DNA of 64,000 bases from an uncultured virus (IMG/VR IMGVR_UViG_3300046336_000146) (taxonomy: Duplodnaviria; Heunggongvirae; Uroviricota; Caudoviricetes), in the IMG/VR virus record IMGVR_UViG_3300046336_000146; one strand, written 5' to 3'. Under the pieces are notes generated by a model. The model was not told the origin of the DNA. It worked only from the letters and a program-made list of their open reading frames with translations, and did no database searches. Shown here in pieces: positions 17,412-64,000 of this stretch. Position numbers and translations under genes: made by a program. Numbering within the stretch: position 1 is the stretch's first letter; each line of letters starts with the position of its first letter.

Positions 17412-18573
17412 CTCCTAAATTTATTATTTCTTGTGTGGGTAAAGTTATTTTATAACATTCTGTGTATCCTGCAAACCATATTTCAGGTTTATGTCTATAA
17501 GATTTATACTTTCTGTGCAGTTCATTTTCCAAATCATAAATATATCCTGCTTCTCCATAGTGTAGGTGTACTACTTTAAACCCGTAAGGTAAGTTCCCCT
17601 TAGTGAATCTTTTATTTAATTCTAAAAAAGTTTTTCCTATTTTAAAAAACTGTTCTCTTTCTATATCACACTTTATTAAGTATACACAAGCTGTTCTTCC
17701 GTTGGCTTTTTTTATATATCCACTCTTAGTATATCCACAAGAACCCTGTCTGCCTATTAAACTTTTACTAATATTTTCAGATAAACACTTTCTACAACAG
17801 CCTCCAAAAATATGATTCACTGGGTATTGGTCAAAATAAACATCGTGTACATTGCATTTTATTGTAACTTTTTCTTTACATGACTTATAAACAGTGTACG
17901 TATAGTCACACTTATCACCATGGACCTCTTTTGCTTGTTTTATAAAATCTTCAGTTGTTTTTGATCTAACTCTCCTATAATTTATAGCGCTGCATTTTGG
18001 ACAATCTACTCCATTAAAATGATTCCTCATGGAAACTGTAAAAACTCCGTGTTCTTTACAAACTACATCTATATTTCCTCTCGAATTTCCTACTATTGTG
18101 TTATCGTAGTTGTTTTTATCTCCGTATAACTTGTAAACTTCCTCTAAAAACATTTCTTTATCTGTGGACCTTGTTTTCTTTTCCCTTTTTACTAGATAGA
18201 CTTTTTTGTTTAATAAACTAATAGGAGTCACTTTAAGGATACCTCTTTCTTTGCAAACTATAGATACTGGAGTTCTTTTATTAATATATTCAACTAAACT
18301 GAGGTCATATTTATCTCCATATATTTCTTGCACTTCTTCTATAAACTGTTCCTTACTCTTTCTAGCTTTTTTTATTTGGTCTTCTCTACCGCATTTAGGA
18401 CAATTTGCTCTGTAATGTATTTTTGGAGTTTGTAGAAATGGTCCGTGTTTTTCACATGAAATTTCTACTTCCGTTGTACTGTTAAAATATTCTACTTTTG
18501 AATAATCATATCTATTGCCATGGACTAACATAGCTTTTTCAATAAATTCTTCTGTTGTTGGCTTCTTTGACAT
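17395..18573 (-). CDS. Putative homing endonuclease (repeated CxxH..CxxC modules plus GIY-YIG-like C-terminus)
   Basis: Repeated YDYSKVEY..CEKHG..CPKC units; VYLIK..FKIGKT..GYTEC. Confidence 0.7.
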   Translation of the reverse strand: MSKKPTTEEFIEKAMLVHGNRYDYSKVEYFNSTTEVEISCEKHGPFLQTPKIHYRANCPKCGREDQIKKARKSKEQFIEEVQEIYGDKYDLSLVEYINKRTPVSIVCKERGILKVTPISLLNKKVYLVKREKKTRSTDKEMFLEEVYKLYGDKNNYDNTIVGNSRGNIDVVCKEHGVFTVSMRNHFNGVDCPKCSAINYRRVRSKTTEDFIKQAKEVHGDKCDYTYTVYKSCKEKVTIKCNVHDVYFDQYPVNHIFGGCCRKCLSENISKSLIGRQGSCGYTKSGYIKKANGRTACVYLIKCDIEREQFFKIGKTFLELNKRFTKGNLPYGFKVVHLHYGEAGYIYDLENELHRKYKSYRHKPEIWFAGYTECYKITLPTQEIINLGDERIY

Positions 18574-20913: not shown

Positions 20914-21209
20914 GTCCCTTTTATTTTTATGTTAAAACTTACTCCGTCAGCACTACAAGTCATAGTTTTAGAAAAACTACTTACACAATCATTATACTTA
21001 ACCCTGACTTTTGCAGAAGTAGTTGTTAATACCTCTTTCTCCACTACTGTGCATCCACAAGTTGGTTTGACATTTAGAGTAGAGGAGTTTTTTAAATCTT
21101 CAAACGTTAAGTTTGTAGTGGTGTCATCTCCCTTTTTTATCATACCAAGATTTAAAATGTAGCTCTCTCCTTCCTGGTATATCATGTATTTATCTGTTGT
21201 TATTTTCAT
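20904..21209 (-). CDS. DUF1573-like Ig-fold protein
   Basis: VKPTCGCTV and FSKTMT resemble the DUF1573 signature. Confidence 0.5.
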   Translation of the reverse strand: MKITTDKYMIYQEGESYILNLGMIKKGDDTTTNLTFEDLKNSSTLNVKPTCGCTVVEKEVLTTTSAKVRVKYNDCVSSFSKTMTCSADGVSFNIKIKGTCL

Positions 21210-27680: not shown

Positions 27681-28832
27681 GTGAATAAAAAATGGTACGG
27701 AGTAGGTTCTTCAAAATCACATGAAGATTTCATGGAACAATTGTATGAAAACAATTTAGGTTATAGAAAAGGACTGTTTGAAGTAGTTGGAAAATATAGA
27801 GGAGGAAAGAGTAAAGTCATATTAAAAGACAAATATGGTTACTGCTCTATATGCGCTTATGATTTGACATCAGGAAAAGTTCAAAAAACAACTATAAAAT
27901 CTGCGATATTTAAAACTCAGTACTTAAAAGAATACTTACGACAAAACAATAAAAACTTCTATAATGGCTATTTTAGAATTATATCTGAATATGATACAGC
28001 AAAGAGCGATATTTTAGCTATAGATTCATTAGGAAATATTCATAAAATTAAACCTTCATCCTTACTTAATGGTTGTAATTTATCTATAAAGTCTGCTATT
28101 GATAGAGAGGATTTTTTATTTAGAAAAATATGTAGTAGAAATAAGTATTTTAAATCAGGTGAAATTAAGTATATATCTAGTTTTGTAAAAAATCAAAGTT
28201 GTTTTATAAAAGTCTCTGATGAATTTGGAGAATATATAATGGACATATCAGTAGCTTATGTAGGTTCAAGACCAACAATAGAAATAGCAGTAAACAAAAA
28301 TGAAAATTTAATAAATAGGTTAAAACAAAACGGAGGTGATTATGACTACTCTAATGTCATTTATACTAAAATGGATGATAAGGTAAATATCATATGTAAA
28401 AAACATGGGATGTTTCAACAACGTTCTTCAAATCACATAAGAGGAGAAGGATGTCCTAAATGTGGCACTCAATCTATGTTAGAGATTAATTCTATATCAC
28501 CTACAGGTTGGACATACACTAATTGGATAAATGCAGGAATGAGGAGTAAAAAATTCGACTCTTTTAAAGTTTACATAGTTAAAATGGAATCGTTAGACGG
28601 TAAAGAGGAGTTTTATAAAATAGGTAAAACTTTTCTAACTATTAGAAATAGGTTCAAAGATATTAAAACTTATAAAGTAAGCGAAATATTAAAGATATTT
28701 GAAAGCAAAGACGGTAGATTCATAACAGAAAAAGAAACAGAACTGTTAAGAATAAATAAAAAGTTTAAGTATAGACCTAAAAATAATTTTGGAGGTTATA
28801 TGGAATGTTTTAGTAAAGTAATATATGATTAA
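27681..28832 (+). CDS. Putative homing endonuclease (Zn-ribbon plus GIY-YIG-like)
   Basis: YDYSNVIY..CKKHG..GCPKC; VYIVK..YKIGKT..GGYMECF; same family as 17395-18573. Confidence 0.65.
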   Translation: MNKKWYGVGSSKSHEDFMEQLYENNLGYRKGLFEVVGKYRGGKSKVILKDKYGYCSICAYDLTSGKVQKTTIKSAIFKTQYLKEYLRQNNKNFYNGYFRIISEYDTAKSDILAIDSLGNIHKIKPSSLLNGCNLSIKSAIDREDFLFRKICSRNKYFKSGEIKYISSFVKNQSCFIKVSDEFGEYIMDISVAYVGSRPTIEIAVNKNENLINRLKQNGGDYDYSNVIYTKMDDKVNIICKKHGMFQQRSSNHIRGEGCPKCGTQSMLEINSISPTGWTYTNWINAGMRSKKFDSFKVYIVKMESLDGKEEFYKIGKTFLTIRNRFKDIKTYKVSEILKIFESKDGRFITEKETELLRINKKFKYRPKNNFGGYMECFSKVIYD

Positions 28833-34014: not shown

Positions 34015-34141
34015 CAACACACGCTACAACGGATTTGGGCAATTGGCTTAATGGAAAGTTGGTTTTGTATTTGGGATGATTTGGCAAATCCGAAAATAGG
34101 GCTTAATTTAGTCCCAAACCCGCTGTAGCGCGGGAACGTTA
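34015..34141 (+). repeat. attC-like hairpin site 1 (array 1)
   Basis: CAAC-aca-cgctacaacggatttggg...cccaaacccgctgtagcg-cgggaac-GTTA, 127 bp. Confidence 0.85.
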
Positions 34142-34189
34142 CAGGATATTGTACCAAAACTGTACGTTGAAAAAGAACTCAACAGAAAA

Positions 34190-34765
34190 ATGGAATACGT
34201 AATTATAGCAGTTTTATTAATTGTCTTATTTTTAGTAACTTTGCGGAAAGAAGAAATAACTAAAACAAAAGTTGTTTACATATCAAAACAAGATAATAAC
34301 AATACTATGTCTTATAGTCCAACAACAATAGCGAACTACTTCATACAAGAAAAAGCCAAATTTGGCAAGTTGACTTCAATGAAGTTGATAAAATTAGTTT
34401 ATATTTCTTATGCTTGGTATATTACCTTGAAAGGGAAAGAAAACCCCCTAACAAATGAAAAAGCCCAAGCTTGGAAATATGGACCAGTTTTTCCATCATT
34501 GTATAAAGTAATAAAGAGTGAGGGAACAGTTGAAGTTGAAAAGCCATTGCCCAATAATAGAGAGGAAGTTATTACGAGAGAAGATGCTAACTTTTTAGAT
34601 AAGATGTGGGATTTGTATGGTAAATATAACGGCGTTGAGTTGAGTGCTATGACACATGCTGAGAAAACCCCTTGGAGAGAGGTTTACTGTAGAAATTGTA
34701 ATTCAGAAATACCAGATGATTTGATAATTAGCCACTATACACCAAAACTAAAATCCGCTTCGTAA
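34190..34765 (+). CDS. Panacea (DUF4065/SocA-like) antitoxin; alternative start at 34307
   Basis: IANYFI..LTSMKLIKLVY..AWKYGPV..LSAMTH..TPW motifs. Confidence 0.85.
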   Translation: MEYVIIAVLLIVLFLVTLRKEEITKTKVVYISKQDNNNTMSYSPTTIANYFIQEKAKFGKLTSMKLIKLVYISYAWYITLKGKENPLTNEKAQAWKYGPVFPSLYKVIKSEGTVEVEKPLPNNREEVITREDANFLDKMWDLYGKYNGVELSAMTHAEKTPWREVYCRNCNSEIPDDLIISHYTPKLKSAS

Positions 34766-34769
34766 TTGA

Positions 34770-35135
34770 TTGATTGATTTAAATAGACTCCCAAACACCA
34801 TTCCTGATAATTTTAGAGACGCAGATATTGATGAAGCAGTTTCCGATATTACGTCGTGGAATAAAGATATTTCTCCCGAAGAAGAAAGGTACAGAGAAAA
34901 TACAGTTTTAAGAGATAATTTAGCAAAGGTTTTTACTATTGTAATAATATTTTGGTTAGTCTCTGTTATTCTAATCCTCGTTGGAAATGACTTAAAATAT
35001 AATTTAAGTGACACTGTTTTGGTAACTCTTTTAACCACTACAACAATACAAGTTTTAGGGTTAGTTTATATTATATTAAAAGACTTATTCCCAGGCGGAA
35101 AAGAGAATCCAAAAAACAACAGCACCGCACAATAA
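34770..35135 (+). CDS. Two-TM membrane protein, candidate cognate toxin
   Basis: Immediately downstream of the Panacea gene within the same cassette; two hydrophobic helices. Confidence 0.55.
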   Translation: MIDLNRLPNTIPDNFRDADIDEAVSDITSWNKDISPEEERYRENTVLRDNLAKVFTIVIIFWLVSVILILVGNDLKYNLSDTVLVTLLTTTTIQVLGLVYIILKDLFPGGKENPKNNSTAQ

Positions 35136-35145
35136 CAACATCCTG

Positions 35146-35272
35146 TAACACACGCTACAAGCAATTGCCACAATAGGCTTTCAGAAAAATTGTCTTGTAC
35201 TTGTAAAAATTAGTAATAAACAGAAATATTAATCCGCCTTAATTGGCAACCGCGTGTAGCGCGGGAACGTTG
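35146..35272 (+). repeat. attC-like hairpin site 2 (array 1)
   Basis: TAAC-aca-cgctacaagcaattgcca...tggcaaccgcgtgtagcg-cgggaac-GTTG, 127 bp. Confidence 0.85.
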
Positions 35273-36079: not shown

Positions 36080-36205
36080 CAACACACGCTACAAGCAAGT
36101 TGGGCAAAGGTGTTGAATTAAAAAACGGTTTTGTACTTTCCGAAAAAAGTAACAACAGAAAATAAATAATTATTAACCCAACCTGCGTGTAGCGCGGGAA
36201 CGTTA
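36080..36205 (+). repeat. attC-like hairpin site 3 (array 1)
   Basis: CAAC-aca-cgctacaagcaagttggg...cccaacctgcgtgtagcg-cgggaac-GTTA, 126 bp. Confidence 0.85.
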
Positions 36206-36259
36206 TATGATAGCTTAACTAAAGAAAGAGCTAAAGTAGAAGCGAGAAAATATATAACA

Positions 36260-36562
36260 ATGGAGTATAATATACCCGAATGGGAAAGAAAAGCTTACGA
36301 AGAAAAAGCAGAAAAATTTGAAAAAGACCAAAGTATTACCTTTACAATAAGTAAAGATAAAAATGGTATTGACAGACCAACAGAGGAGGAGAGAAAAACA
36401 ATAATCGACAAATTAGAGCCTATAAGACAAAAAGCCGAAAATGAAATAGCAGAAATATTAAATAAAATTACCAAGGAACATTCTATTTATATTTGGACTA
36501 ACTGTAAAGAAAAAATAGAATTAACTTTTATCTATCCGAGTTCTAATTTAGTTTATAATTGA
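36260..36562 (+). CDS. Cassette hypothetical protein
   Basis: 100 aa between sites 3 and 4. Confidence 0.6.
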   Translation: MEYNIPEWERKAYEEKAEKFEKDQSITFTISKDKNGIDRPTEEERKTIIDKLEPIRQKAENEIAEILNKITKEHSIYIWTNCKEKIELTFIYPSSNLVYN

Positions 36563-36565
36563 AAG

Positions 36566-36802
36566 TTATTTAAAGATTTCATTCATAAGACTTAATCTAT
36601 ATTCTTCGGGTTTAAACTTACCGTCTAGAGCATAATCTTTGGCATTTTCATTATACAGTTTATATCTATTATTTAACAAGTCGTTATTAAATTCGTTTAG
36701 ATATTTTTGTGTTTCAGGTACAACCTTTTTAACAAATCTAACACCATCTCTAATAGTGTATAACTCTTCATTAACAATTAAAAGTGCATCTTCATAAGTC
36801 AT
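36566..36802 (-). CDS. Cassette hypothetical protein (likely start 36802, MTYEDALL)
   Basis: Convergent with 36260-36562, stop codons 3 bp apart. Confidence 0.5.
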   Translation of the reverse strand: MTYEDALLIVNEELYTIRDGVRFVKKVVPETQKYLNEFNNDLLNNRYKLYNENAKDYALDGKFKPEEYRLSLMNEIFK

Positions 36803-36902
36803 AATTAAAGTTTTAAAGTGAGAACCAAAAGTAAGAAATAAATTTATAAATTGCGATGGAAAAGTAAAATGTGTAAAAACAGAAGCATAAAAAGCCATCA
36901 TA

Positions 36903-37027
36903 TAACACACGCTACAAGCAAGTTGTGGCAAAGAGCTAAAATAAAAACGGTCTTGTACTTGCCGAAAAAAGTAACAACAGAAAATAAATAATTATTAACC
37001 CAACCTGCGTGTAGCGCGGGAACGTTG
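36903..37027 (+). repeat. attC-like hairpin site 4 (array 1)
   Basis: Near-copy of site 3 (last ~60 bp identical), 125 bp. Confidence 0.85.
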
Positions 37028-54906: not shown

Positions 54907-57681
54907 ATGGATAAAATAATAGAGCTTAAACAAAAATATTTATATACAGAAGCAACAGCAGAAGAAATTTTAAGAGAGATTTTTGAAATATACGCACCCA
55001 GCGAACGTTTCCTCAACAACTTTGATCTAGAAATAAAGTATAAAGGTTACGGAATACATAACCTTTATCAAAGAGGGATTTATATTTCCGAAGGAGAGTA
55101 CTCTGACTGTTTAGAAGAAGCTTATGAAATAACTAAAAAATTAGGGTAGTTATGAAAAAATACAGATACAATATTTCAACAAATACAATTTGGACTTCAT
55201 TCGATTACGGAGAAGTTGAAGCAGAAAATTTGGAAGAAGCAAGAGAAAAAGCAATCGAGAAACTAAAATACGATGTTAAAAAATGCAATGACGCTTTTAA
55301 GTATTGCGACATCACTCAGGGCTTCGAAATAGAAATGGACTACAAACAAGTAGAGGTTGAATTAATAAAAGAATAAAAACTTATGAAAAAAGTATTAATC
55401 ATTTTATGTGTGTTATTATTTATATCTTGTGATAAGTACAGAAAAGATGTAATTGTAGGTAAGTATATTCAAGGAGATACTTACTACTCTTTAAGAATTT
55501 TTGAAAAGTTTACATTTTTTAATAACGGCGCGATAAAAATTTACACACTCGAAGGAGAACAGATTACTGAAAAGAATATTGACAGTATAAATGTAGAAGC
55601 AGATAATTTTATAAAACTATTAAATAAAAAAGTAAATTAAACAACTATGAAATATCACGTGCTATTAGGAGATTTTGGTTTTGTAGGTGAAGATGCTTAC
55701 ATTTATTTAATAGACGAAATTGCGGAAGTAGAAGAAAATGAGTTAGATAAATTCTGCGAAGATTCTTTAGATATATATGAAGGATATTTAATTCCTGAGA
55801 AGTTTAATGGAAAAATTTTAATGTAACAAACAAAATGGATAAACAATTATTACTTGAGAAAGTAAAAGAAAAGAAGTATTCACACGAACAGTTATTAGGT
55901 TGGGTGGGTGCCCTTCCAGGGAGTCTTAATTTCAGGAAACCTTCTGTTCACAAAGTAGGAGATGTTTTTATGCATAGTGTCTTTAAACATCCCTATATTT
56001 TATTAAAAAAAGGTAAAGAGGGTTGGATTTGTGGATTGTTTACGTCAGAAGAAAATTGTCCTGAAATATTAGAAGCTTGTCAGTCTAGATTTTTTAATGG
56101 TAATTATATAACAAAAGCTTTATTCAGTACCTCAGAAATAACAGGCACTTTTCTAGGAGTATATGACAACAACACGCACTTAAGAGAGTGTTACAAAAAT
56201 ATTAAAACCGCATTAAATTTAAAATGATAAAAATAGTCAACTCAAATACCAAAGAATTTTTTAATAAATCTTCAATAAGAGAAGTTGTAAGAGAATGGTT
56301 CGAAGAAATTAGAGCCAAGAATAAAAGTATTACCAAACAAGATGTGGAAGAAAACATAGAACTTCTTCAACAATGCTACATGAAATCATTACACAGATTT
56401 GTGAATGATAGTAGAATTATGTATACCTCTTCTGTTTATTACAAAAAGTTTTTAAACGGAGAAAGGGATAAAGAGTATATTGACATACTTAAGGCCAATG
56501 TTAAAAGATTATTTTTAGAGACTTGTTTAGATAAAAATTTCAGATTAGACTTAAGATATGCTAATTACTTATGCCTAGAGACTGTTGAAGGCCTGTTTTA
56601 CGAAGGGGAAGTGTACAAACATCTTAACAACGTACATTTTTTCCTAAACAGAAGTTTGTATGGGACTAGAGAAGAGGATGTGGAATTACATTTAGTTCCA
56701 GACCAAGGTAAAAATCATTATACAATTAGCGCAGAATTAAAACACAAATTTAAAAAAGTTTAAAAAGATTTAAAAAATGAAATTATTTAATATAGAATTA
56801 AAGTTAACAGAGCAAGAGGAAAAGTTAGAAGGTATTGTAGTTAAACTTTTAAATGCTTCGGCCACCACAAAAAATTTAAAAGTACTCTCAACAGATACAA
56901 TTTGTCTACTAAAGAATGAGGAAAAACATTTCACAGTTCTAGTGGATAGTGTTGGGATTGCAATACAAAATACTACCTACAGTACAAGATACAGACTTAG
57001 AGATAAATTTCTTTCTCATTTGAAGGATATGATAATAGAGAAGGTAAATGAAGAAACAGATAAGTATATAGCTGAGATATATAGTAAAGAAACAAACTTA
57101 CTAGACAACATAAACAAAATTTTATAAATTTAAATTACCATGGGTAGAGAAGTAGCAGTAGTAACAGGGTACATAATGTACAACGATTTACTAGAGGACG
57201 CAATAGGAGTAAACGATAGCTTTAATTCTAAAATTGATTTAGCTATTGAATTAGCTGAAAAGTTTGTTGAAAAATATCCCGAAGATTATAACTGGGAAGA
57301 ATCAGAACTAGATTTTGAAGAGACAGTAGAAGAATTTTTAAAACCTTATCTGTTATGCTTTTAAAAGAGACGACTAAACTAGCTTTAAAATTTGTAGAAA
57401 ATAATTTTGACAATATTAATTTAGAAGCAGTAGGGAGTATAACTTCTAAAGAGCAAATTTTAAAAGAAATAAGGGAAGACTACAGCACCGCCTGTTGGAT
57501 CTTAACAGAAGTTATGAGTTGGGGTACAAAAGACGGGAAAGATTATATTGTTGAGTATATAGTTGATAATGAAGAAGATATTTTTGTTATAAAACTTGAT
57601 GATAAGTATTTTAAAATAAATTATGAAACTCACTGTTTAGATGAGTGTGAACCAAAATATAAAACAATAGTTTATTTTTAG
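54907..57681 (+). other. Cluster of small hypothetical ORFs, including a lipoprotein-like ORF at 55383-55640
   Basis: Co-directional ORFs; MKKVLIILCVLLFISC lipobox-like signal. Confidence 0.55.
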
Positions 57682-57814
57682 TTATGAGTAAAGAAACAAT
57701 AAAAAAATGGTGGGACAGTTTATATCCTTCAACACAAATAATTTTGATGGACAGGCACCAAACAGATAATATAGAGACAATCTACAACAAAGAGTTTAAA
57801 TTCAAAAAATAAAA

Positions 57815-58099
57815 ATGTATAAGCTACCAGTTGATTACAGAAAGTTGCATTACACTGAAAGAAAAAATGTCAGATTACAATACATAGAAGAACAAAAAGG
57901 ATTGTGTTATTATTGTGGGTGTAATCTAAAAGAGGAAGCACCAAAACATATTAAGGATAAAAAAATTAATTGGAAGTTATTTCCTGAAAACTTTTTACAG
58001 TATCCAATTCATTTACAGCATAACCATAATACTGGAATGACTGAAGGCGCAGTTCACAACTATTGTAATGCGGTTATGTGGCAATACGATGGTCGTTAG
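57815..58099 (+). CDS. HNH / endonuclease VII-like protein; terminal cassette remnant
   Basis: CYYC..HLQHNH..GAVHNYCN; stop codon abuts the first attC-like site. Confidence 0.6.
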   Translation: MYKLPVDYRKLHYTERKNVRLQYIEEQKGLCYYCGCNLKEEAPKHIKDKKINWKLFPENFLQYPIHLQHNHNTGMTEGAVHNYCNAVMWQYDGR

Positions 58100-58108
58100 T
58101 CTTGCTAC

Positions 58109-58236
58109 TAACGTTCCTCTAGTGCAGCTCGCTAGGGAGAAGCAAGCCGTTTGACTTCGGATACAAAACAATTATAACAAGTACAAACTGATTTATAAAT
58201 TGAGCCAAATCTAGCAATAGCATATATGCGCTGTTA
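58109..58236 (-). repeat. attC-like site A (array 2, degenerate stem)
   Basis: Plus strand TAACgtt...gctag...ctagc...ctGTTA, 128 bp. Confidence 0.7.
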
Positions 58237-58270
58237 GGGCAAGTACGGAATTTTAATAACTGAATATCTT

Positions 58271-58655
58271 ATGGAAAGAACTGAAGTCTTAGAAAAATTA
58301 AAAGAAGAATATAGAAAATTATCAAAAATATCAGACCAACAGTTTGAGGAAAGGTTCTCAACTTCTAAAAATGAACAAAGATGGTATGATGATTTATATA
58401 AAGACTACCATACTATAAAAATAAGGATAGATTTGTTATTAGAATTATTAACATAATAATTGAGATATGAGTAATACAATTAAAACACAAAATTATGGGA
58501 CTATTGAAATAATCACGATAGACCCGCACACAGGAGAAGGGACTAATGATTTAAGATTAGAAATTGATTCAAAATACTGTTCTGCTTGGATTCATTTGCA
58601 AGAAGATGAAGTTATGAAATTACGAGATGAGCTTAACGAATGGCTCGACTTATGA
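58271..58655 (+). other. Two-gene cassette (58271-58456, 58467-58655)
   Basis: Bounded by gttagggcaagtac / gtatttgccctaac. Confidence 0.7.
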
Positions 58656-58677
58656 AAAATAATAGTAGTATTTGCCC

Positions 58678-58805
58678 TAACGCCCTATGGCTATAAGCAG
58701 TTGCCAATAAAACTGCCTAAACTTCAAATTAATAAAGAATGAAAACAAGTACAAAACGGTCTTTAAATTTAAGACAAAAGTGGCAATTGCTTATAACCAC
58801 TGTTA
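58678..58805 (-). repeat. attC-like site B
   Basis: TAAC..ggctataagcagttgcca...tggcaattgcttataacc..GTTA, 128 bp. Confidence 0.85.
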
Positions 58806-59122
58806 TGAGTAGTGCGGTGTTGTTAAAAGCAAATCACATTTTATTTTGGTGGTATTATAAACGAGTTCCTAAATTCTTTCATAAATGGACTATTTTAAAA
58901 AGTATCACACTACTTAAACAAAATTACGAACACGCAGAATTTAGGTATGAAGGATTAAATGAAGTTGTTAGAAACGCTTCAAAAAGAGAAAGAGAAATGA
59001 CTACTGAAATTTCTAATTTAAGACTAAAATTAATGGGAGTTTCGCAAGATGTTATTGACCCTTTAAATGAAATTTTTGGAACGAATTTAAAAGGAAAATC
59101 GACTTTTGAACGAGATAATTAG
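58739..59122 (+). CDS. Cassette hypothetical protein starting inside site B
   Basis: 127 aa; cassette ends gttatgagtagtgc / gcattactcataac. Confidence 0.55.
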   Translation: MKTSTKRSLNLRQKWQLLITTVMSSAVLLKANHILFWWYYKRVPKFFHKWTILKSITLLKQNYEHAEFRYEGLNEVVRNASKREREMTTEISNLRLKLMGVSQDVIDPLNEIFGTNLKGKSTFERDN

Positions 59123-59131
59123 CATTACTCA

Positions 59132-59260
59132 TAACGTTAAGGCATATACGCAGTTACGGATTAAGTAAATCCTAATCATCTAATTAAACAACAATAAAAC
59201 CAAGTACACACAAATATTATAAATCAAGACTATTGCCGTAATTGCTTATATGCAGTGTTA
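59132..59260 (-). repeat. attC-like site C
   Basis: TAAC..gcatatacgcagttacgg...ccgtaattgcttatatgc..GTTA, 129 bp. Confidence 0.85.
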
Positions 59261-59284
59261 GCAGTAGTTATTTTAAACACAATT

Positions 59285-59560
59285 ATGAAAAGAACACAAG
59301 TAAAAAAAGCAACCGTACACGTATTTGATATGGAGGAACTAGCGTGTAAAATAATGGGAATTGATTATGATGAAATTAATGCAGATACAGAAGTCATAGA
59401 AGAAGAATTATATAATCAATTTGAAATAGATTTAGAGAATTTTAGTGAAATAGTAAACAGATTACTTCCGCTTATTGATATTGGAGAAAGTCCGTTAACA
59501 AAACAGAAATTTAAAGGTTTTTCAACTGGTCAAATGTGGTTAGCGAAGATTCCTGTATAA
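59285..59560 (+). CDS. Cassette hypothetical protein (ATG at 59285)
   Basis: Cassette ends gttagcagtagttat / ataattactgctaac. Confidence 0.65.
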   Translation: MKRTQVKKATVHVFDMEELACKIMGIDYDEINADTEVIEEELYNQFEIDLENFSEIVNRLLPLIDIGESPLTKQKFKGFSTGQMWLAKIPV

Positions 59561-59567
59561 TTACTGC

Positions 59568-59693
59568 TAACGTTGAGCATAACTCTAGTTACGGACTAAA
59601 CAAGCCGAAACATTCAGATTAAAAACCGTATCACTGATACAAAAACATTTATAAATTCAAGACCGAAACCGTAATTAGTGTTATGCATTGTTA
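59568..59693 (-). repeat. attC-like site D
   Basis: TAAC..gcataactctagttacgg...ccgtaattagtgttatgc..GTTA, 126 bp. Confidence 0.85.
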
Positions 59694-59721
59694 GGGTTAG
59701 GTTTTTTTTAAACTCAAGATT

Positions 59722-60099
59722 ATGAAAGGTTCAGAAAAAGCACATTTATTTAAAACAGGACAATATGGAAGATTGTATATTACAAGTAGTTCCCACGCAA
59801 GAGGAAACACATTAAGAATACAAGTGCTTCCCGAAGGAGAAATAGCAATTCCAAATGGAAGTGGAAATACTTGCTTAAACAAAGATGCAGTAATTGTTTA
59901 TGATGTTGTATCAGGACAAAGAGGATGGACAGAAGCTTACGGATGGTTGCACGAAGGAAAATGGCAAGATGATTTTAGAAAACTTGTTATAGATGCTGAA
60001 AAAAAGATTGAATATTTAAGAAAACAATCAGAAAAATCGAAAGTAGAAAAACAAAAACAGGAAGAAGAAAAATTGTCTAAATTATTAAGCGACTATTAG
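59722..60099 (+). CDS. Cassette hypothetical protein
   Basis: 125 aa; cassette ends gttagggttaggttt / aaacttaaccctaac. Confidence 0.65.
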   Translation: MKGSEKAHLFKTGQYGRLYITSSSHARGNTLRIQVLPEGEIAIPNGSGNTCLNKDAVIVYDVVSGQRGWTEAYGWLHEGKWQDDFRKLVIDAEKKIEYLRKQSEKSKVEKQKQEEEKLSKLLSDY

Positions 60100-60127
60100 T
60101 ATGCGGTATGTTTGGCAAACTTAACCC

Positions 60128-60217
60128 TAACGTTTTGCGTATATACGAGGTACGCCAAACGATAAATTTCAAATTATAAACAAATGCTTCTAGGCGTATC
60201 TTGTATATACGCTGTTA
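60128..60217 (-). repeat. attC-like site E
   Basis: TAAC..gcgtatatacgaggtacgcc...ggcgtatcttgtatatacgc.GTTA, 90 bp. Confidence 0.85.
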
Positions 60218-60312
60218 GCAGTAGTACGGTTTTAAACCACAAATGCTCAATCGGAGAACTGAACCTTTTTCTTTTCTTTTTTGAGCGATGGCAAAAATAT
60301 TAAAATAAAATT

Positions 60313-61086
60313 ATGACAATAGATTTAAGATACGGTGATACAATAGAACAAATGAAATTGATACCTGATAAAAGTATTGATGCTATTATTTGTGATTTAC
60401 CTTATGGTACAACTGCTTGTAAATGGGACACGATAATACCATTTACTAACCTTTGGGAACAATACGAAAGAATAATTAAAGATAACGGAGCAATAGTATT
60501 AACCGCTTCACAACCATTTACAAGTGCTTTGGTTATGAGCAACCCTAAATTATTTAAGTATGAATGGATATGGGAGAAAAATGTTGCAAGTAATTTTATG
60601 CAGTATAAATTTATGGTTGCAAAAAAACACGAAAACGTATTGATATTTGCAAAAGGTAAAACAAAATATAATCCAATTATGGAAGATAAATCAGAACTAT
60701 CTATACAGCGAATGAAATATAAGTTTAAAGATAGAAAGCAATCAGAACACTATAAAACGGATATTTCAGAAGACAGGTCAGATAGGCAAGAAAAAATGTA
60801 CCCAACAAGTGTAAAGAAGTTTAACAGAGAAGTTGGATTACATCCCACGCAAAAGCCAATATCAATGATGGAATATTTTGTGTTGACTTATACTGATGAA
60901 AACGATACAATACTTGACAATACTTTTGGAAGTTGTACTACGGGAATAGCTTGTATAAATACTAATAGGAACTTTATCGGTATTGAGAATAATATGGATT
61001 ATTTTAATATTTCTTTAAAGAGGGTGGAAGAAAAAAGAAAAGAAAAAGAATTTAACGTAGTAACTTCATTCGGAGATGGAATGTAG
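60313..61086 (+). CDS. DNA N6-adenine/N4-cytosine methyltransferase (beta class), cassette-borne
   Basis: DLPYG, HPTQKP, LDNTFGSCTTG; cassette ends gttagcagtagtac / gtattactgctaac. Confidence 0.9.
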   Translation: MTIDLRYGDTIEQMKLIPDKSIDAIICDLPYGTTACKWDTIIPFTNLWEQYERIIKDNGAIVLTASQPFTSALVMSNPKLFKYEWIWEKNVASNFMQYKFMVAKKHENVLIFAKGKTKYNPIMEDKSELSIQRMKYKFKDRKQSEHYKTDISEDRSDRQEKMYPTSVKKFNREVGLHPTQKPISMMEYFVLTYTDENDTILDNTFGSCTTGIACINTNRNFIGIENNMDYFNISLKRVEEKRKEKEFNVVTSFGDGM

Positions 61087-61149
61087 TATTACTGCTAACT
61101 ACTATATGTATTACATGCATTAAAACCTTAATAAAATAAATACTTTACA
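61086..61149 (-). other. attI-like site
   Basis: Last cassette end (TAAC at 61096-61099) is not followed by a hairpin but by the 50-bp leader of the integrase. Confidence 0.55.
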
Positions 61150-61977
61150 ATGAAAACTTCTGAACACAAGGGTAACTTCATTCAGGAAATGAAAAGAAGA
61201 GGTTACAGAGAAAATAGTATAAAAAACTATAGTAGTTGCATAGATGTATTTTTATCAACTATTAAAAAAGATCATCCTAAAAATATCAATGAACAAGATA
61301 TAAAACATTTTTTAGGTAATTGTATAAGAGCTAATACTCAGAGAAATTATCAATCGGCTATAAAACTGTTTTACGAAATATGTTTTAATCAAAAACAAAA
61401 GTTTAAGAATATCCCATATACAAAAAAAGAGAAAAAACTTCCTATTATTTTATCAGTGGACGAAATTCAAAAAATGTTTGATGTTTGTGAGAATAAAAAG
61501 CATAAATTAATTTTGGCTCTGTTGTACTCTTGTTCTTTAAGAGTTTCAGAAGTTATAGATTTAAAGTGGGAAAATATTGATAGGAGTAGAAGAGTGATTT
61601 ATATTTTAGATGCTAAGGGAGGTAAAAATAGACAAGTTGGATTGAACGATACGCTGATAAAGTTAATGGAAGAGTATTACAGAGCCTATAAAACTAGAAT
61701 TTTTATTTTTGGAGGGCAATTTTCTGAACAATATTCGTCAAGAAGTGTGTTGCAAGTGGTAAAGCAACTTTCAATAAAAGCGGGGATTGACAAAAGAACC
61801 TATACTCACTTAATAAGACACTGTTCTGCAAGTCATATGGTAGAGAATGGAATCGATATCAATTTAATCCAACGGATTTTGGGGCATCAAAATGTTAAAA
61901 CTACGTTAATTTACACTCATATTTCACACAATATAATAAGTAAAGTACAGTCACCTTTAGAAAAGATATCAATTTAA
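61150..61977 (+). CDS. Tyrosine recombinase, integron-integrase-like
   Basis: N-terminal SAM-like domain (RRGYRENSIKNY); catalytic R (LRVSE), K (KGGK), HLIRH, LGH and Y (TLIY). Confidence 0.9.
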   Translation: MKTSEHKGNFIQEMKRRGYRENSIKNYSSCIDVFLSTIKKDHPKNINEQDIKHFLGNCIRANTQRNYQSAIKLFYEICFNQKQKFKNIPYTKKEKKLPIILSVDEIQKMFDVCENKKHKLILALLYSCSLRVSEVIDLKWENIDRSRRVIYILDAKGGKNRQVGLNDTLIKLMEEYYRAYKTRIFIFGGQFSEQYSSRSVLQVVKQLSIKAGIDKRTYTHLIRHCSASHMVENGIDINLIQRILGHQNVKTTLIYTHISHNIISKVQSPLEKISI

Positions 61978-61995
61978 TTTTTTTTACAGAAACCT

Positions 61996-62026
61996 TTGCC
62001 TATTTAAAATTAATATTATACATTTG
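61996..62026 (+). promoter_or_regulatory. Promoter TTGCC-N18-TACATTTG
   Basis: Consensus match. Confidence 0.65.
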
Positions 62027-62040
62027 TAAAAAAATAAATC

Positions 62041-62178
62041 ATGAAAGCATATAAGTTAATAAGAAAATTAAAAGATGGTACATTGTCCCCTCTGTTTATA
62101 AACAAGAAAAGTAGAATACTTTTTGATGTTTGGCTAGAGGCCGAGGCTCATCCAACACAAGGATTGGAAAAGATATGA
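62041..62178 (+). CDS. 45-aa ORF, possibly a truncated gene
   Basis: MKAYKLIRKLKDGTLSPLFINKK..HPTQG then an early stop; good promoter and leader upstream. Confidence 0.35.
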   Translation: MKAYKLIRKLKDGTLSPLFINKKSRILFDVWLEAEAHPTQGLEKI

Positions 62179-62406
62179 GAATAAGAGTAAAATCAAAAGA
62201 CAGTATTTTTTATTTATACCTTTCTAGTTTCGATGCAAAAGATTTAAAAATAGGAGATAGCATAAAATAAACAATAAAATGCGCGTAATATACATAGAAG
62301 AAACAGTAAGACTTTTAAGTGAGCAAGGGGCTCAAGTAAAAATAAAGTCGGGGAGTAGTCAAGCAAACAGAAGAAGGGATTAATTATTTAAAGATAGAAG
62401 AATAAT

Positions 62407-62437
62407 TTGCACATATAATATATTAGTTGTATATTTG
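62407..62437 (+). promoter_or_regulatory. Promoter TTGCA-N18-TATATTTG driving the DGR locus
   Basis: Consensus match. Confidence 0.7.
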
Positions 62438-62463
62438 TCAAAGAAAATTAAAATAATAAACAT

Positions 62464-62925
62464 ATGAAAACAATAATTCAAATTAACGGTAAAGATGTAG
62501 AAATTACACTTACTAAAGAACAAGTAGTGCAGATAAACAAACAAAAAGAATTAGATGCTTCAACTTGCACGTTACAAGACTGTATTGATTACTTAGGAGA
62601 AAATGACCAAGAAGTTATTAATTTAAGACAATTAGAAAAAGTAAGTATCTCTGATTATGTTTTAGCTAATCAACAAGCTGTTTGTATCATTAAAGCATTA
62701 AATGGGGATTGGACTCCTAATTGGAACAACTCAAATGAATATAAATATTTTATTTGGTGGAATATGCAAAACAAAGATTTCTCGTACTACGACTTCGACC
62801 ACCATTGGTTTTCTTGCTCGCTTGTTTCCGCACGCCTCTGTCTAAAAAACTCAAGATTATGCCAAGACATTGGTAAAAATAAAGAATTTGTGAAAATTTT
62901 CACAAAATTTATGCTTATAGGTTAA
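62464..62925 (+). CDS. DGR target protein
   Basis: 153 aa containing the variable repeat (SYYDFDHHWFSCSLVSARLC). Confidence 0.85.
   Translation: MKTIIQINGKDVEITLTKEQVVQINKQKELDASTCTLQDCIDYLGENDQEVINLRQLEKVSISDYVLANQQAVCIIKALNGDWTPNWNNSNEYKYFIWWNMQNKDFSYYDFDHHWFSCSLVSARLCLKNSRLCQDIGKNKEFVKIFTKFMLIG
62781..62841 (+). repeat. DGR variable repeat (VR)
   Basis: Aligns to the TR with 15 A-to-N changes, 1 G-to-C change and a 3-nt insertion. Confidence 0.9.
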
Positions 62926-63002: not shown

Positions 63003-63111
63003 TCAACAAAATTAAAAAGTATTAACCTTACCAACAGGGTAAAAAACAAATAAAAGCCTCAAAAGGTTGTTAGTAAATAAAATGAAAGCAACCTTCTTTG
63101 AACAGAGAAAG

Positions 63112-64000
63112 ATGAAAAGAATAGGAAACATATTTGATAAAGTAGTCAGCTTAGAGAATTTAAAAATCGCCGATAAAAAAGCTAAAAGAGGAAAAGCAAA
63201 TCAAAAAGAAATAAGAGAGTATTTTAAAAACAGAGAGGCTAATTTAGAAACACTTCATAACAGTTTAATTAATGGAGAATTTAAAACGTCCAACTATTCT
63301 GTTTTTAAAGTATATGAGCCAAAAGAAAGAATAATATCAAAACTACCTTTCTTCCCCGACAGAATAATTCAATGGGGTCTTTATTTACAGTTAGAAAATA
63401 TATTTACATCTACATTTACTGTGGACACTTATAGTGCAATAAAAGGAAGAGGTATTCATAAATTATCAAATAATTTAATTAAGTCTTTAAAAGATTTAAA
63501 TAAAACAACGTATTGTTTAAAGTTAGATATAAAACAATTTTATCCATCTATAGACAATAGTATCCTAAAAAACAAGATAAGGCGTAAAATAAAATGTAAA
63601 AAGACACTATATTTATTAGATAATATTATAGATTCCGCAAAAGGCTTACCTCTTGGTAATTTATTAAGTCAGCTGTTTGCTAATGTTTATCTTAATGAGT
63701 TAGACCATTACATAAAACAAGATTTAAAAGCAAAGTATTATTTTAGGTATTGTGATGACATTTGTATTTTATCAAATAATAAACAGGAGTTACATAGTAC
63801 ATTACATATTTTAAAGAGTAAATTAGCAGATATAAAATTAGAAGTTAAGGGTAACTATCAGATTTTTCCTGTAGAAAAAAGAGGAATTGATATTGTAGGG
63901 TACAAACATTTCCATACACATAAATTGTTAAGAAAATCAATTAAAAAGAATTATATTAAAAACAAGAATAAAAAGACACATTATTCGTGGTTAAAACATT
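63112..64000 (+). CDS. DGR reverse transcriptase (runs off the right edge)
   Basis: MKRIGNIF..EPKERII..PDRIIQ..GRGIH..LDIKQFYPSI..GLPLGNLLSQ..YFRYCDD (YCDD at 63748-63759). Confidence 0.95.
   Translation, partial: MKRIGNIFDKVVSLENLKIADKKAKRGKANQKEIREYFKNREANLETLHNSLINGEFKTSNYSVFKVYEPKERIISKLPFFPDRIIQWGLYLQLENIFTSTFTVDTYSAIKGRGIHKLSNNLIKSLKDLNKTTYCLKLDIKQFYPSIDNSILKNKIRRKIKCKKTLYLLDNIIDSAKGLPLGNLLSQLFANVYLNELDHYIKQDLKAKYYFRYCDDICILSNNKQELHSTLHILKSKLADIKLEVKGNYQIFPVEKRGIDIVGYKHFHTHKLLRKSIKKNYIKNKNKKTHYSWLKH

What the first reader, a model, noticed from the sequence alone, without database searches (positions are those of the whole stretch)
57815..61977. Phage-borne integron-like system: tyrosine recombinase, attI-like site and a five-site cassette array
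Seen: five 90-129 bp imperfect hairpins (58109, 58678, 59132, 59568, 60128), each starting TAAC and ending GTTA, separate one- or two-gene units. The array ends at a bare TAAC (61096) 50 bp before a tyrosine recombinase with an intact R-K-HxxR-H-Y set. Established: integrons place intI next to attI, pointing away from an array of cassettes delimited by AAC...GTT attC hairpins. Inference: this phage carries its own cassette capture/shuffling platform using a Bacteroidota-type attC family. I know of no characterised example in a lytic-type phage.
Basis: partly seen in the sequence, partly recalled or inferred. Interest (0 to 1): 0.95.

Follow-up and report, generated by a model that had tools for sequence, protein, structure and literature searches.

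The report
Integron-like gene-cassette platform in a phage
This large freshwater phage carries rows of small swappable genes, each bounded by a folding DNA hairpin, ending at a fixed docking site beside the phage's own small recombinase: the layout of a bacterial integron, but run by a simpler enzyme and with the genes facing the other way.

Summary
Five hairpin sites and a bare TAAC lie where stated, 50 nt before a 275-aa tyrosine recombinase. A covariance model finds exactly nine sites in the window: these five plus four inverted ones at 34-37 kb.

Each gene unit is flanked by a 14-15 bp inverted repeat specific to that unit, running across the AAC/GTT cores, which is the integron-cassette signature. 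It is exact in 28 of 41 neighbouring site pairs from 25 sources, against 21 of 3803 control pairs.

- All 12 viral-contig relatives of the recombinase have variable sequence up to TAAC and then a conserved TACTATATGTAT-like stretch, about 51 nt before the gene.
- A relative with 81% identical recombinase shares DNA only from that TAAC onward.
- Two cassettes recur in unrelated cultured Flavobacterium phages, with homology ending at GTTAG and CTAAC.
- Metagenome contigs diverge at these same borders.

It is not an integron in the strict sense. The enzyme is Xer-like and lacks the IntI insertion, and the cassette genes point toward the recombinase. Related arrays with a longer homologue occur in Flavobacteriaceae chromosomes.

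Partial prior art exists (phage CALINs, Qi 2023; rAID-1, Ross 2019). This scan has flagged the same kind of system before on other DNA. No recombination has been demonstrated.

The parts
57815..58099 (+). 94-aa endonuclease VII/HNH-like gene at the distal border of array 2; its stop codon overlaps a GTTAG
   Evidence: Pfam Endonuclease_7 1.6e-05; PHROG 14729 5.1e-35. It is context only; membership in the array is not shown.
58095..58112 (+). GTTAGT-cttgct-ACTAAC palindrome forming the distal boundary (a cassette start motif directly followed by a cassette end motif)
   Evidence: Read from the sequence. No longer partner for the left flank of s1 was found elsewhere in the window.
58109..58236 (+). 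site s1: degenerate or hybrid hairpin site (the left arm resembles the array-1 type, the right arm the s3/s5 type)
   Evidence: R1 81.2 bits. DNA fold z -0.33. Alignments.
58233..58681 (+). cassette 1, from GTTAGGGCAAGTAC to GTATTTGCCCTAAC, with two small ORFs (58271-58456 and 58467-58655)
   Evidence: Flank repeat matches 14 of 15 positions, with G/A at position 11. ORFs. No family hit.
58678..58805 (+). site s2
   Evidence: R1 109.5 bits. 19-nt arms 89% complementary (I12). Fold z -2.36.
58802..59135 (+). cassette 2 (GTTATGAG ... CTCATAAC), ORF 58805-59122 (or from the ATG at 58739 inside the loop of s2)
59132..59260 (+). site s3
   Evidence: R1 106.8 bits. 18-nt arms 89% complementary (I25).
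59257..59571 (+). cassette 3 (GTTAGCAG ... CTGCTAAC), ORF 59285-59560; the same cassette occurs in Flavobacterium phage FPSV-F7
   Evidence: blastn 80.9% identity over window 59256-59574 only (H12). In FPSV-F7 it lies between two sites of the same kind. 77% amino-acid identity.
59568..59693 (+). site s4
   Evidence: R1 96.5 bits. 18-nt arms 89% complementary (I24). Metagenome contigs diverge at 59568 and 59694.
59690..60131 (+). cassette 4 (GTTAGGGT ... ACCCTAAC), ORF 59722-60099, 125 aa, no family
60128..60217 (+). site s5 (short loop)
   Evidence: 20-nt arms 90% complementary (I9). Fold z -4.24, 0 of 200 shuffles. A 98% identical copy lies elsewhere in a relative's contig. Contigs diverge at 60128, 60213 and 60229.
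60214..61099 (+). cassette 5 (GTTAGCAGTAGTAC ... GTATTACTGCTAAC): N6/N4 DNA methyltransferase, 60313-61086
   Evidence: Pfam N6_N4_Mtase 1.4e-26. 77.3% nucleotide identity to Flavobacterium phage mymlan6-1 over window 60213-61099 only (H1). Contigs diverge after 61099 in 3 runs.
61096..61149 (+). attI-like end site: cassette-side TAAC, then conserved TACTATATGTATT and an A-rich leader up to the recombinase ATG
   Evidence: The same junction is present in all 12 viral relatives and 2 MAG contigs; it is variable to the left of TAAC and conserved to the right. Homology to the 81%-identity relative starts at 61095. It is the only such site in the window.
61150..61977 (+). 275-aa Xer-like tyrosine recombinase without the IntI insertion
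   Evidence: Pfam Phage_integrase 1.9e-37. NCBIfam XerA_Arch 197.3 bits (cut-off 220) and integrase_gron 165.1 bits (cut-off 265), the latter in two stretches. PDB: XerA 5hxy 1.8e-29 and IntI4 2a3v 5.4e-29, with a 42-residue deficit.
34016..34140 (-). array 1, site A (inverted relative to array 2)
   Evidence: R1 99.3 bits.
34138..35149 (+). array 1 cassette between A and B (GTTACAGGAT ... ATCCTGTAAC): Panacea/SocA-like protein 34190-34765 and a 121-aa membrane protein 34770-35135, reversed relative to the site arrow
   Evidence: The flanks match 10 of 10, then show the A/G difference. Pfam SocA_Panacea 1.8e-17.
35147..35271 (-). array 1, site B
   Evidence: R1 93.8 bits.
36081..36204 (-). array 1, site C; its outer flank ACCACCAAC pairs with the outer flank of D, GTTGGTGGT
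   Evidence: R1 98.2 bits. This reads as one cassette inserted into a single older site.
36202..36906 (-). array 1 cassette between C and D (GTTATATGAT ... ATCATATAAC), ORFs 36566-36901 (-) and 36260-36562 (+)
   Evidence: No family hit.
36904..37026 (-). array 1, site D
   Evidence: R1 82.5 bits.

Best explanation
Window 58.1-62.0 kb is a phage-borne gene-cassette platform that works like an integron but is not one in the strict sense.

Anatomy:
- Each cassette is a compact unit: GTTA, six unit-specific bases, G, a short leader, an ORF, T, the six complementary bases, TAAC.
- Cassettes are separated by 90-130-nt sites. Each site has an AAC-G core, 3-5 unpaired bases, an imperfect stem of about 18-20 bp, an A/T-rich loop with a conserved CAAGTACAAA...TTTATAAAT motif, and a T-GTT core.

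Proposed mechanism:
1. The adjacent 275-aa Xer-like tyrosine recombinase exchanges strands at the AAC/GTT core.
2. An excised cassette closes into a circle, in which its two ends pair and lengthen the site's stem by 14-15 bp.
3. Circles dock at the conserved TAAC|TACTATATGTATT site, about 50 nt upstream of the recombinase gene.
4. Because only 3-4 bases are conserved at the junction, and unit-specific sequence begins immediately beside it, the exchange is most likely a single-strand exchange on a folded strand. It would then be resolved by replication, as in integrons and CTX-phage integration.

Cargo is accessory and anti-defence genes, mainly several classes of DNA methyltransferase, so the platform lets phages swap such genes.

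Shown: the anatomy, structural covariation, the unit-specific flank rule, the conserved junction beside the recombinase, cassette turnover at exact borders, and sharing of cassettes between unrelated phages.

Inferred: that this recombinase is the catalyst, that the substrate is folded single-stranded DNA, the circular intermediate, and the direction of insertion.
For: 1. Flank rule. In the window 7 of 8 neighbouring junctions match (5 of 5 in array 2, 2 of 3 in array 1), with a 14-15 bp match and one fixed G/A difference at position 11. Across 63 sites in 25 sources, 28 of 41 neighbouring pairs match 7 of 7 at the unit-specific positions and 34 of 41 match at least 6 of 7. Controls give 21 of 3803 non-neighbour pairs, and 0 of 62 for the two flanks of one site.

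2. Structure is conserved rather than sequence. 92.9% of cells pair against 65.6% in shuffles; 259 against 81 double changes; 0 of 500 shuffles reach either value; slid controls give 32-49%.

3. Docking site. All 12 of 12 viral-contig relatives (51-81% identical recombinase) and 2 of 2 close MAG contigs have variable sequence up to TAAC, then a TACTATATGTAT-like sequence 51-53 nt (111 nt in some) before the ATG. In 9 of 13 loci the last cassette's end has its 9-10-nt partner upstream.

4. Arrays lie upstream of the recombinase, in the same orientation, in 11 of 15 loci.

5. Turnover. The contig with the 81%-identity recombinase shares DNA with the window only from 61095 onward. Its cassettes are different (PAPS-reductase-like, EF-Tu-like fragment).

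6. Cassette mobility. The methyltransferase unit (60213-61099) and the 59256-59574 unit recur in cultured Flavobacterium phages, with homology ending at the cores.

7. Population level. 12 of the 24 listed loose ends of contigs from 4 metagenome runs fall at 59568, 59694, 60128, 60213, 60229 or 61099.

8. The enzyme has the full catalytic set and is about equally close to XerA and to VchIntIA.
Against: - No experiment shows recombination at these sites, by this enzyme or by any other.
- The enzyme lacks the IntI insertion that binds the flipped-out bases of attC.
- Arrays of the same sites exist in cultured phages without a close homologue. Mymlan6-1 has none at E<=0.001, FPSV-F7 has only a 29%-identical 401-aa integrase, and no cultured phage carries a homologue above 38% identity.
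- L048 and L054 keep the docking sequence without the gene.
- Contigs diverge on both sides of the hairpins, and shared cassettes carry neither neighbouring hairpin. A strict 'gene plus one hairpin' unit is therefore not supported.
- One junction in the window (B to C) breaks the flank rule.
- Single-sequence folding is weak for 3 of 5 sites.
- One covariation measure (number of pairs with a double change: 10, against 10.1 in shuffles) does not discriminate, and the alignment was fitted to the model.
- G.T against A.C counts in the stem (46 against 38 once the fixed pair is excluded) give no clear strand bias.
- IntI1 did not recombine the one site of this family that has been tested (Qi et al. 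2023, section 3.4 and supplement).
Confidence: 0.72

Rival explanations
1. The cassettes are real and move by site-specific exchange at the cores, but another enzyme moves them: a host array-linked recombinase, host Xer, or a co-infecting phage's enzyme. The adjacent 275-aa recombinase would then have a different job, such as prophage integration or resolving genome dimers.
For: Cultured phages carry arrays without a close homologue. Host-family genomes encode a 372-402-aa homologue directly beside arrays of the same sites. L048 and L054 kept the docking sequence but lost the gene.
Against: The recombinase gene sits at a fixed distance from the conserved junction in every relative found by protein search (12 of 12 viral, 2 of 2 MAG). 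The array-proximal half of that junction changes with the last cassette. No other attachment-type site was seen near the gene.
Confidence: 0.15
2. The hairpins are regulatory elements between early genes (promoter/terminator or RNase III processing sites). Gene shuffling would happen by ordinary homologous recombination between them, as proposed for PeSL elements of T4-type phages (recalled).
For: A conserved loop motif sits upstream of most cassette ORFs. Hairpins within one genome are homogenised (FPSV-F7 sites 1 and 2; window sites C and D). s1 looks like a hybrid of two hairpin types. Contigs diverge on both sides of the hairpins.
Against: Homologous exchange inside the hairpins would not create unit-specific inverted repeats across each gene, and would not place breakpoints within 1 nt of the cores. 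No sigma-70-type promoter excess (15 against 18.7 expected) and 0 terminators were found. Array 1 is inverted relative to most of its genes. This reading does not explain the conserved junction beside a recombinase.
Confidence: 0.06
3. The hairpins are miniature inverted-repeat transposable elements that inserted between genes.
For: They have terminal inverted repeats (TAACG ... TGTTA), occur in many copies, lie at intergenic positions, and are found at contig ends in draft bacterial genomes.
Against: There are no target-site duplications. The two flanks of one site never match (0 of 62), whereas the flanks across a gene do. Stem sequences covary instead of being conserved copies. No transposase is linked.
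Confidence: 0.03
4. It is a canonical integron or CALIN fragment captured from a bacterial chromosome and serviced by IntI-type integrases.
For: The AAC/GTT hairpin sites and cassette logic fit. HattCI called one site of this family an attC (Qi et al. 2023).
Against: The recombinase fails the IntI tests. That site did not recombine with IntI1. The platform is conserved across phage contigs with its own junction. Bacteroidetes are reported as nearly free of IntI integrons (Neron et al. 2022, passages).
Confidence: 0.02

Closest known systems
Integrons, especially sedentary chromosomal integrons (IntI, attI, attC-bounded cassettes)
   Same: - Arrays of one- or two-gene cassettes are separated by imperfect hairpin sites with AAC...GTT cores and an unpaired spacer.
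- The start of each cassette is complementary to its own end across the core.
- There is a docking site beside a tyrosine recombinase gene that points away from the array.
- Sites within one genome are homogeneous.
- A toxin-antitoxin-like cassette lies in reverse orientation.
   Different: - The recombinase is 275 aa, Xer-like and without the IntI insertion.
- Cassette genes run toward the recombinase, so a promoter at the docking site cannot serve them.
- Sites are 90-130 nt, with near-invariant AACG/TGTT and a conserved loop motif.
- The pairing between a cassette's ends is 14-15 bp, not 7.
- The platform is carried by a phage.
CALINs (clusters of attC sites lacking an integrase) in virulent phages, Qi et al. 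2023, PMC9892861
   Same: Their P12002L_attC1 (supplementary primer row) is a short site of this same family in Polaribacter phage P12002L (L018 7148-7205). It lies among methyltransferase cassettes.
   Different: They found no cognate recombinase or docking site in such phages, and treated the sites as integron components usable by bacterial IntI. That particular site was the one of six that gave no recombinants with IntI1. Here the array has its own recombinase and junction.
rAID-1 gene clusters of gut Bacteroidales (Ross et al. 2019; preprint 10.1101/471110, passages read)
   Same: A XerD-family tyrosine recombinase lies beside an array of small accessory genes, with repetitive intergenic sequences that the authors call reminiscent of integrons. 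The Flavobacteriaceae arrays found here have the same layout: recombinase first, then co-directional genes.
   Different: Those clusters are bacterial, carry interbacterial immunity genes, and have the recombinase upstream and co-directional. Homology of their recombinase and repeats to these was not tested here. In the phage, the array lies upstream of the recombinase.
Xer recombination, including Xer-dependent integration of folded single-stranded CTX phage DNA (recalled)
   Same: The enzyme's best family and structure matches are XerA and XerD. There is precedent for a Xer-type enzyme acting on a folded single strand, with one strand exchange.
   Different: There is no 28-bp dif-like duplex site. 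The scores are below the XerA, XerC and XerD cut-offs. Here there are many sites in arrays, with cargo.
PeSL regulatory cassettes in T4-type phages (recalled)
   Same: Stem-loop elements lie between small early genes in hyperplastic regions of phage genomes and are linked to modular gene shuffling.
   Different: PeSLs are thought to shuffle by homologous recombination and have no recombinase, no AAC/GTT cores and no unit-specific flank repeats.

Membership tests
Integron (sensu stricto) | Integrase of the IntI type: a tyrosine recombinase with the IntI-specific insertion in the catalytic domain | tested here: not met
   Query residues 176-195 (20 aa) lie opposite VchIntIA 180-241 (62 aa). TIGR02249 scores 165.1 bits against a cut-off of 265, in two stretches; PRK15417 scores 85.7 against 435.
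Integron (sensu stricto) | attC-type sites: an imperfect hairpin with AAC/GTT cores, an unpaired central spacer and a variable loop | tested here: met
   Stems covary and the cores are invariant (AAC 62 of 62, GTT 62 of 62 rows with letters). Flipped-out bases could not be assessed.
Integron (sensu stricto) | Cassette boundary signature: the first bases of a cassette are complementary to the inner end of its own site | tested here: met
   7 of 8 junctions in the window. 28 of 41 exact across 25 sources, against 21 of 3803 controls.
Integron (sensu stricto) | attI beside the integrase gene: a conserved half toward the gene and a variable half toward the first cassette | tested here: met
Integron (sensu stricto) | Cassette genes read away from attI and are expressed from a promoter Pc at the platform | tested here: not met
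   42 of 45 ORFs in phage arrays run toward the docking site and recombinase.
Integron (sensu stricto) | Integrase-dependent excision and insertion through the folded bottom strand | not testable with these tools
   Only indirect evidence: exact breakpoints. IntI1 failed on one site of this family (Qi et al. 2023).
Xer/dif chromosome-dimer resolution (XerA, XerC/D) | Score above the curated family cut-off, and a duplex dif-type site | tested here: not met
   XerA_Arch 197.3 bits against 220; XerD 165.7 against 329.6; XerC 153.2 against 335.15. No dif-like site was looked for beyond the docking site.
rAID-1 (recombinase-associated acquired interbacterial defence) | XerD-like recombinase at least 44% identical to the B. 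fragilis reference, placed 5' of two or more co-directional low-GC genes | tested here: inconclusive
   The reference protein was not available, so identity is untested. The layout is not met in the phage, where the genes lie upstream of the recombinase. It is met in the Flavobacteriaceae loci L091-L093.
PeSL-type regulatory stem-loops | A host-type early promoter plus a stem-loop, with exchange by homology | tested here: not met
   No excess of promoter-like sites (15 against 18.7) and no terminators. Breakpoints are at the cores, not inside the repeats.

The most novel reading that the evidence does not exclude
Bacteroidota and their phages share a second, IntI-independent lineage of integron-type gene capture. 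A compact Xer-like recombinase lacking the insertion thought essential for attC recognition would recombine folded hairpin sites at an AAC/GTT core. Phages would use it to trade anti-defence genes (mainly DNA methyltransferases), while host chromosomes hold long arrays of the same site family. Cassettes could then pass between host and phage arrays during an arms race.
Probability: 0.5. Interest if true: 0.9.

Novelty: new variant of a known kind. Interest (0 to 1): 0.82.

Why it matters
Integron detection tools and the textbook definition both rest on the IntI insertion. On that basis Bacteroidota are regarded as nearly integron-free (Neron et al. 2022, passages), and phage arrays are filed as orphan 'CALINs'.

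If this compact enzyme runs the arrays, three things follow:
- Hairpin-based gene capture evolved, or persists, without that insertion.
- It is common in a major phylum: a site was found in 51 of 121 sampled genomes of the host family.
- Phages own complete platforms for swapping anti-restriction genes.

The question of which protein features are needed to recombine folded DNA then becomes directly testable with a 275-aa enzyme. It would also give a mechanism for the hyperplastic accessory regions of phage genomes.

Tried and rejected
- Rfam search of 57000-62500 at E<=10: only 5 chance-level hits, none to a relevant family.
- Naive pattern TAACG-N60-90-GTTAG: 1 match against 2.97 expected, so the termini alone carry no signal.
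- No whole genome is held for the window.
- Sigma-70 promoter and terminator scan: 15 against 18.7 expected, and 0 terminators. The loop motif is unexplained.
- Exact 16-mer of the docking site in viral contigs: 56 contigs.
  - 13 have the recombinase 51-53 or 111 nt downstream.
  - Three more (L048, L054, L055) have cassette ends.
  - The other 40 show no supporting cassette end. Only three of them (L019, L025, L045) have a site anywhere nearby. I take them as chance matches, without a computed expectation.
- The 11-nt partner of site A's outer flank at 21022 lies inside an ORF with no site nearby; I take it as chance.
- Reverse transcriptase at 63067-end as a possible partner: no homologue in any related locus, and no template/variable repeat pair in the window.
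- No window cassette protein was found in the sampled bacterial array loci (small sample).
- Read laying: some runs have no contig cover over parts of the array (X6 at 58656-59575; X9 at 59760-61047). No contig joins across these parts and no joints were listed, so this is not evidence of cassette absence. One 20-letter insert between 58328 and 61468 in X9 is unexplained.
- Strand bias of wobble pairs gave no clear answer.
- Bacterial integrase loci L094-L096 showed no sites at E<=0.05.
- One Pfam call failed on wrong coordinates and was repeated with the right ORFs.
- Not run: structure prediction, complex prediction and the representative-protein search.

Full report
**1. What is there.**
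The window is part of a large phage genome (31% G+C). It encodes portal, large terminase, virion proteins, a GroEL-like chaperonin, a UvsX-like recombinase, PhoH, a helicase and homing-endonuclease-like genes. No whole genome is held.

Between 58.1 and 61.1 kb, five sites begin with TAAC and end with GTTA: 58109-58236, 58678-58805, 59132-59260, 59568-59693 and 60128-60217. They separate one- or two-gene units, all on the + strand. A bare TAAC at 61096-61099 lies 50 nt before a 275-aa tyrosine recombinase gene (61150-61977) that carries R131, K156/159, H220, R223, H246 and Y255.

A profile and then a covariance model built from the sites find four more, inverted, at 34016-34140, 35147-35271, 36081-36204 and 36904-37026. 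They find nothing else in the 64 kb.

**2. Are the hairpins more than chance?**
The termini alone are not. Single-sequence DNA folding is convincing only for s5 and s2; s1 hardly folds.

The support comes from comparison. The same kind of site occurs in Flavobacterium phages FPSV-F7 and mymlan6-1, in Polaribacter phage P12002L and in many viral contigs. Model R1 finds 63 sites in 25 sources.

On the model-fitted alignment:
- 92.9% of cells pair, against 65.6% in shuffles and 32-49% with slid partners.
- 259 cells changed on both sides, against 81 in shuffles; 0 of 500 shuffles reach either value.
- The count of pairs with any double change (10) does not differ from shuffles.

The cores AAC and GTT are invariant. 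The flanking G and T (AACG...TGTT) form a conserved G.T in 58 of 63 sites. The stem sequences differ freely between sites.

**3. The cassette signature.**
The right flank of each site and the left flank of the next site are inverted repeats of 14-15 bp. Positions 5-10 are specific to the gene unit between them, and position 11 is almost always G on one side and A on the other. An example is GTTAGGGCAAGTAC against GTTAGGGCAAATAC read on the reverse strand.

- This holds for all five units of array 2, including the last, which ends at the bare TAAC. It also holds for two of three units in array 1.
- The outer flanks of sites C and D pair with each other, as expected if one cassette was inserted into a single older site.
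- Across all sources, 28 of 41 neighbouring pairs match 7 of 7 at the unit-specific positions, and 34 of 41 match at least 6 of 7.
- Controls: 21 of 3803 non-neighbouring pairs match 7 of 7, and 0 of 62 for the two flanks of the same site. One truncated row was dropped.
- Several misses are pairs with an undetected site between them (for example L015 6161 to 7758; compare).

This is the pattern produced when a circular cassette carrying one complete hairpin site is opened at the core and inserted. I know of no other process that gives it.

**4. The docking site and the recombinase.**
A protein-pattern scan of viral contigs returned 12 relatives of the recombinase at 51-81% identity.
- In all 12, and in 2 close MAG contigs from the genome collection, the sequence is variable up to TAAC. 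A conserved TACTATATGTAT-like stretch and an A-rich leader follow, and the ATG lies 51-53 nt beyond the TAAC.
- Arrays in the same orientation lie upstream in 11 of the 15 loci. The rest have little upstream sequence or no detectable site.
- In 9 of 13 loci the last cassette's end has its 9-10-nt partner upstream.
- The exact 16-mer of the docking site occurs in 56 viral contigs. Thirteen have the recombinase at the fixed distance. L048 and L054 keep the leader but have lost the gene. Most of the others show nothing else and look like chance.

The enzyme is Xer-like. Its best NCBIfam model is XerA_Arch ('site-specific tyrosine recombinase/integron integrase') at 197 bits, under the cut-off of 220. 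The integron-integrase model gives 165 bits against a cut-off of 265, split in two stretches. Against solved structures it is about equally close to archaeal XerA (1.8e-29) and to VchIntIA (5.4e-29), but it has 20 residues where VchIntIA has 62. The IntI-specific insertion is therefore absent.

The family is large: 1825 proteins at E<=1e-20, about 275 aa each, named XerD where named. No cultured phage in the collection has a homologue above 38% identity.

**5. Cassette turnover.**
- The contig with the 81%-identity recombinase aligns to the window only from 61095, the terminal TAAC, through the recombinase. Its two cassettes are different (PAPS-reductase-like and an EF-Tu-like fragment). A 98% identical copy of hairpin s5 sits 11 kb away in that contig.
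- The methyltransferase unit matches phage mymlan6-1 at 77% over window 60213-61099 only.
- The unit at 59256-59574 matches phage FPSV-F7 at 81%, lying between two sites of that phage.
- Contigs from four freshwater metagenome runs were laid on 57000-62500. Of the 24 loose ends listed, 12 fall at 59568, 59694, 60128, 60213, 60229 or 61099, which are the core borders or the end of the shared 16-nt cassette start. Forty more loose ends were not shown, and these are assembled contigs, not reads.

These breakpoints fall on both sides of the hairpins, and shared cassettes carry neither neighbouring hairpin. Gene units and hairpin bodies are therefore reassorted independently over time. That may be by exchange on either strand, or by additional homologous exchange, of which the hybrid site s1 may be a trace.

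**6. Cargo and orientation.**
Phage cassettes hold:
- DNA methyltransferases of three classes,
- PAPS-reductase-like, radical-SAM, HD-domain and RNA-ligase-like proteins,
- many small proteins of no known family.

Array 1 holds a Panacea/SocA-like protein with a small membrane protein, in reverse orientation.

In phage arrays 42 of 45 ORFs run in the direction of the site arrow (TAACG to TGTTA), toward the docking site and the recombinase. They would therefore need their own promoters. The conserved loop motif lies upstream of each gene, but it is not a sigma-70-type promoter by a simple scan.

**7. The host side.**
Model R1 finds at least one site in 51 of 121 sampled genomes of the family of the Flavobacterium MAG.
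- Six stretches cut out around these matches in six of the genomes hold long arrays, for example 12 sites in 11.8 kb (L089) and 11 in L087. The ORFs there run opposite to the site arrow.
- The cargo is typical accessory genes: GNAT, methyltransferases, a zeta-toxin-like protein, an esterase, a STAND NTPase.
- All 5 array-bearing genomes searched for it encode a 372-402-aa homologue of the recombinase (33-37% identity, with an N-terminal extension and no IntI insertion).
- In 3 of 6 loci examined, that homologue sits directly upstream of a co-directional array.
- Two of four of these homologues pass the NF040815 cut-off.

In both settings the site arrows point toward the recombinase end. The phage version differs in the direction of the recombinase gene and of the cargo.

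**8. Known work.**
- Qi et al. 2023 (outline, abstract, section 3.4 and supplement rows read) reported 'CALINs' in virulent phages. Their P12002L_attC1 is a short site of this family, and it was the one of six sites that gave no recombinants with IntI1.
- Ross et al. 2019 (preprint passages) described rAID-1 clusters in Bacteroidales: a XerD-family recombinase with intergenic repeats 'reminiscent of integrons'.
- Neron et al. 2022 (passages) report only In0 elements and one complete integron in Bacteroidetes.
- Smyshlyaev et al. 2021 (passage) note that the insertion is 'not fully conserved' in their integron-like recombinase subgroup.
- Four further full-text searches found no description of a phage platform with its own recombinase and docking site, and one found none for Flavobacteriaceae chromosomes. 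Supplements of bioRxiv preprints could not be seen.
- The scan itself has flagged the same kind of system on other phage and flavobacterial DNA. Those are unchecked notes, not independent evidence.

**9. Verdict.**
The system fails two defining tests for an integron (IntI insertion, cassette orientation). It is best filed as a new variant: a Xer-like, insertion-less cassette platform of Bacteroidota phages and their hosts. Catalysis by this enzyme, the single-stranded substrate and the circular intermediate remain inferences.

Noticed in passing
window 63067-63999 (runs off the window): Reverse transcriptase gene about 1.1 kb downstream of the recombinase (PHROG 1423 at 2.9e-102; group II intron RT model 99 bits against a cut-off of 300). 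No template/variable repeat pair was found in the window, and no homologue was found beside the recombinase in any related locus.
   Followed up: partly
window 34190-35135: A Panacea/SocA-like antitoxin-domain protein (1.8e-17) followed by a 121-aa protein with hydrophobic stretches. Together they form one cassette of array 1, in reverse orientation to the site arrow. This may be a toxin-antitoxin cassette, as seen in chromosomal integrons.
   Followed up: partly
L085-L093 (Flavobacteriaceae genome stretches): Host-family chromosomes carry long arrays of the same site family (up to 12 sites in 11.8 kb). In three loci these lie beside a 376-402-aa Xer-like recombinase placed upstream of, and co-directional with, the cassettes. 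This phylum is reported as nearly integron-free.
   Followed up: partly
window 58109-58236 (site s1): The left arm resembles the array-1 hairpin type (TAACGTTCC...) and the right arm the s3/s5 type. The arms barely pair. This may be a dead hybrid site made by exchange inside the loops.
   Followed up: no
window 58739-58810: The longest ORF of cassette 2 starts at an ATG inside the loop of site s2 and reads through its right arm. An alternative ATG lies within the GTTATGAG core flank at 58805.
   Followed up: no
L048 and L054 (viral contigs): The docking sequence and about 50 nt of leader are kept after a normal cassette end, but the recombinase gene is missing. These look like platforms that lost their enzyme.
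   Followed up: partly
window 17395-18573 and 27732-28832: Two paralogous HNH/endonuclease-like genes (PHROG 681 and 559). One lies next to the large terminase gene; they are probably homing endonucleases.
   Followed up: no
window loop motif, e.g. 58176-58201, 58744-58769, 59629-59657: A conserved CAAGTACAAA ... TTTATAAAT motif lies in the hairpin loops, in the same orientation relative to the site in both arrays. Its function is unknown; it could be a phage promoter or an accessory-protein binding site.
   Followed up: partly
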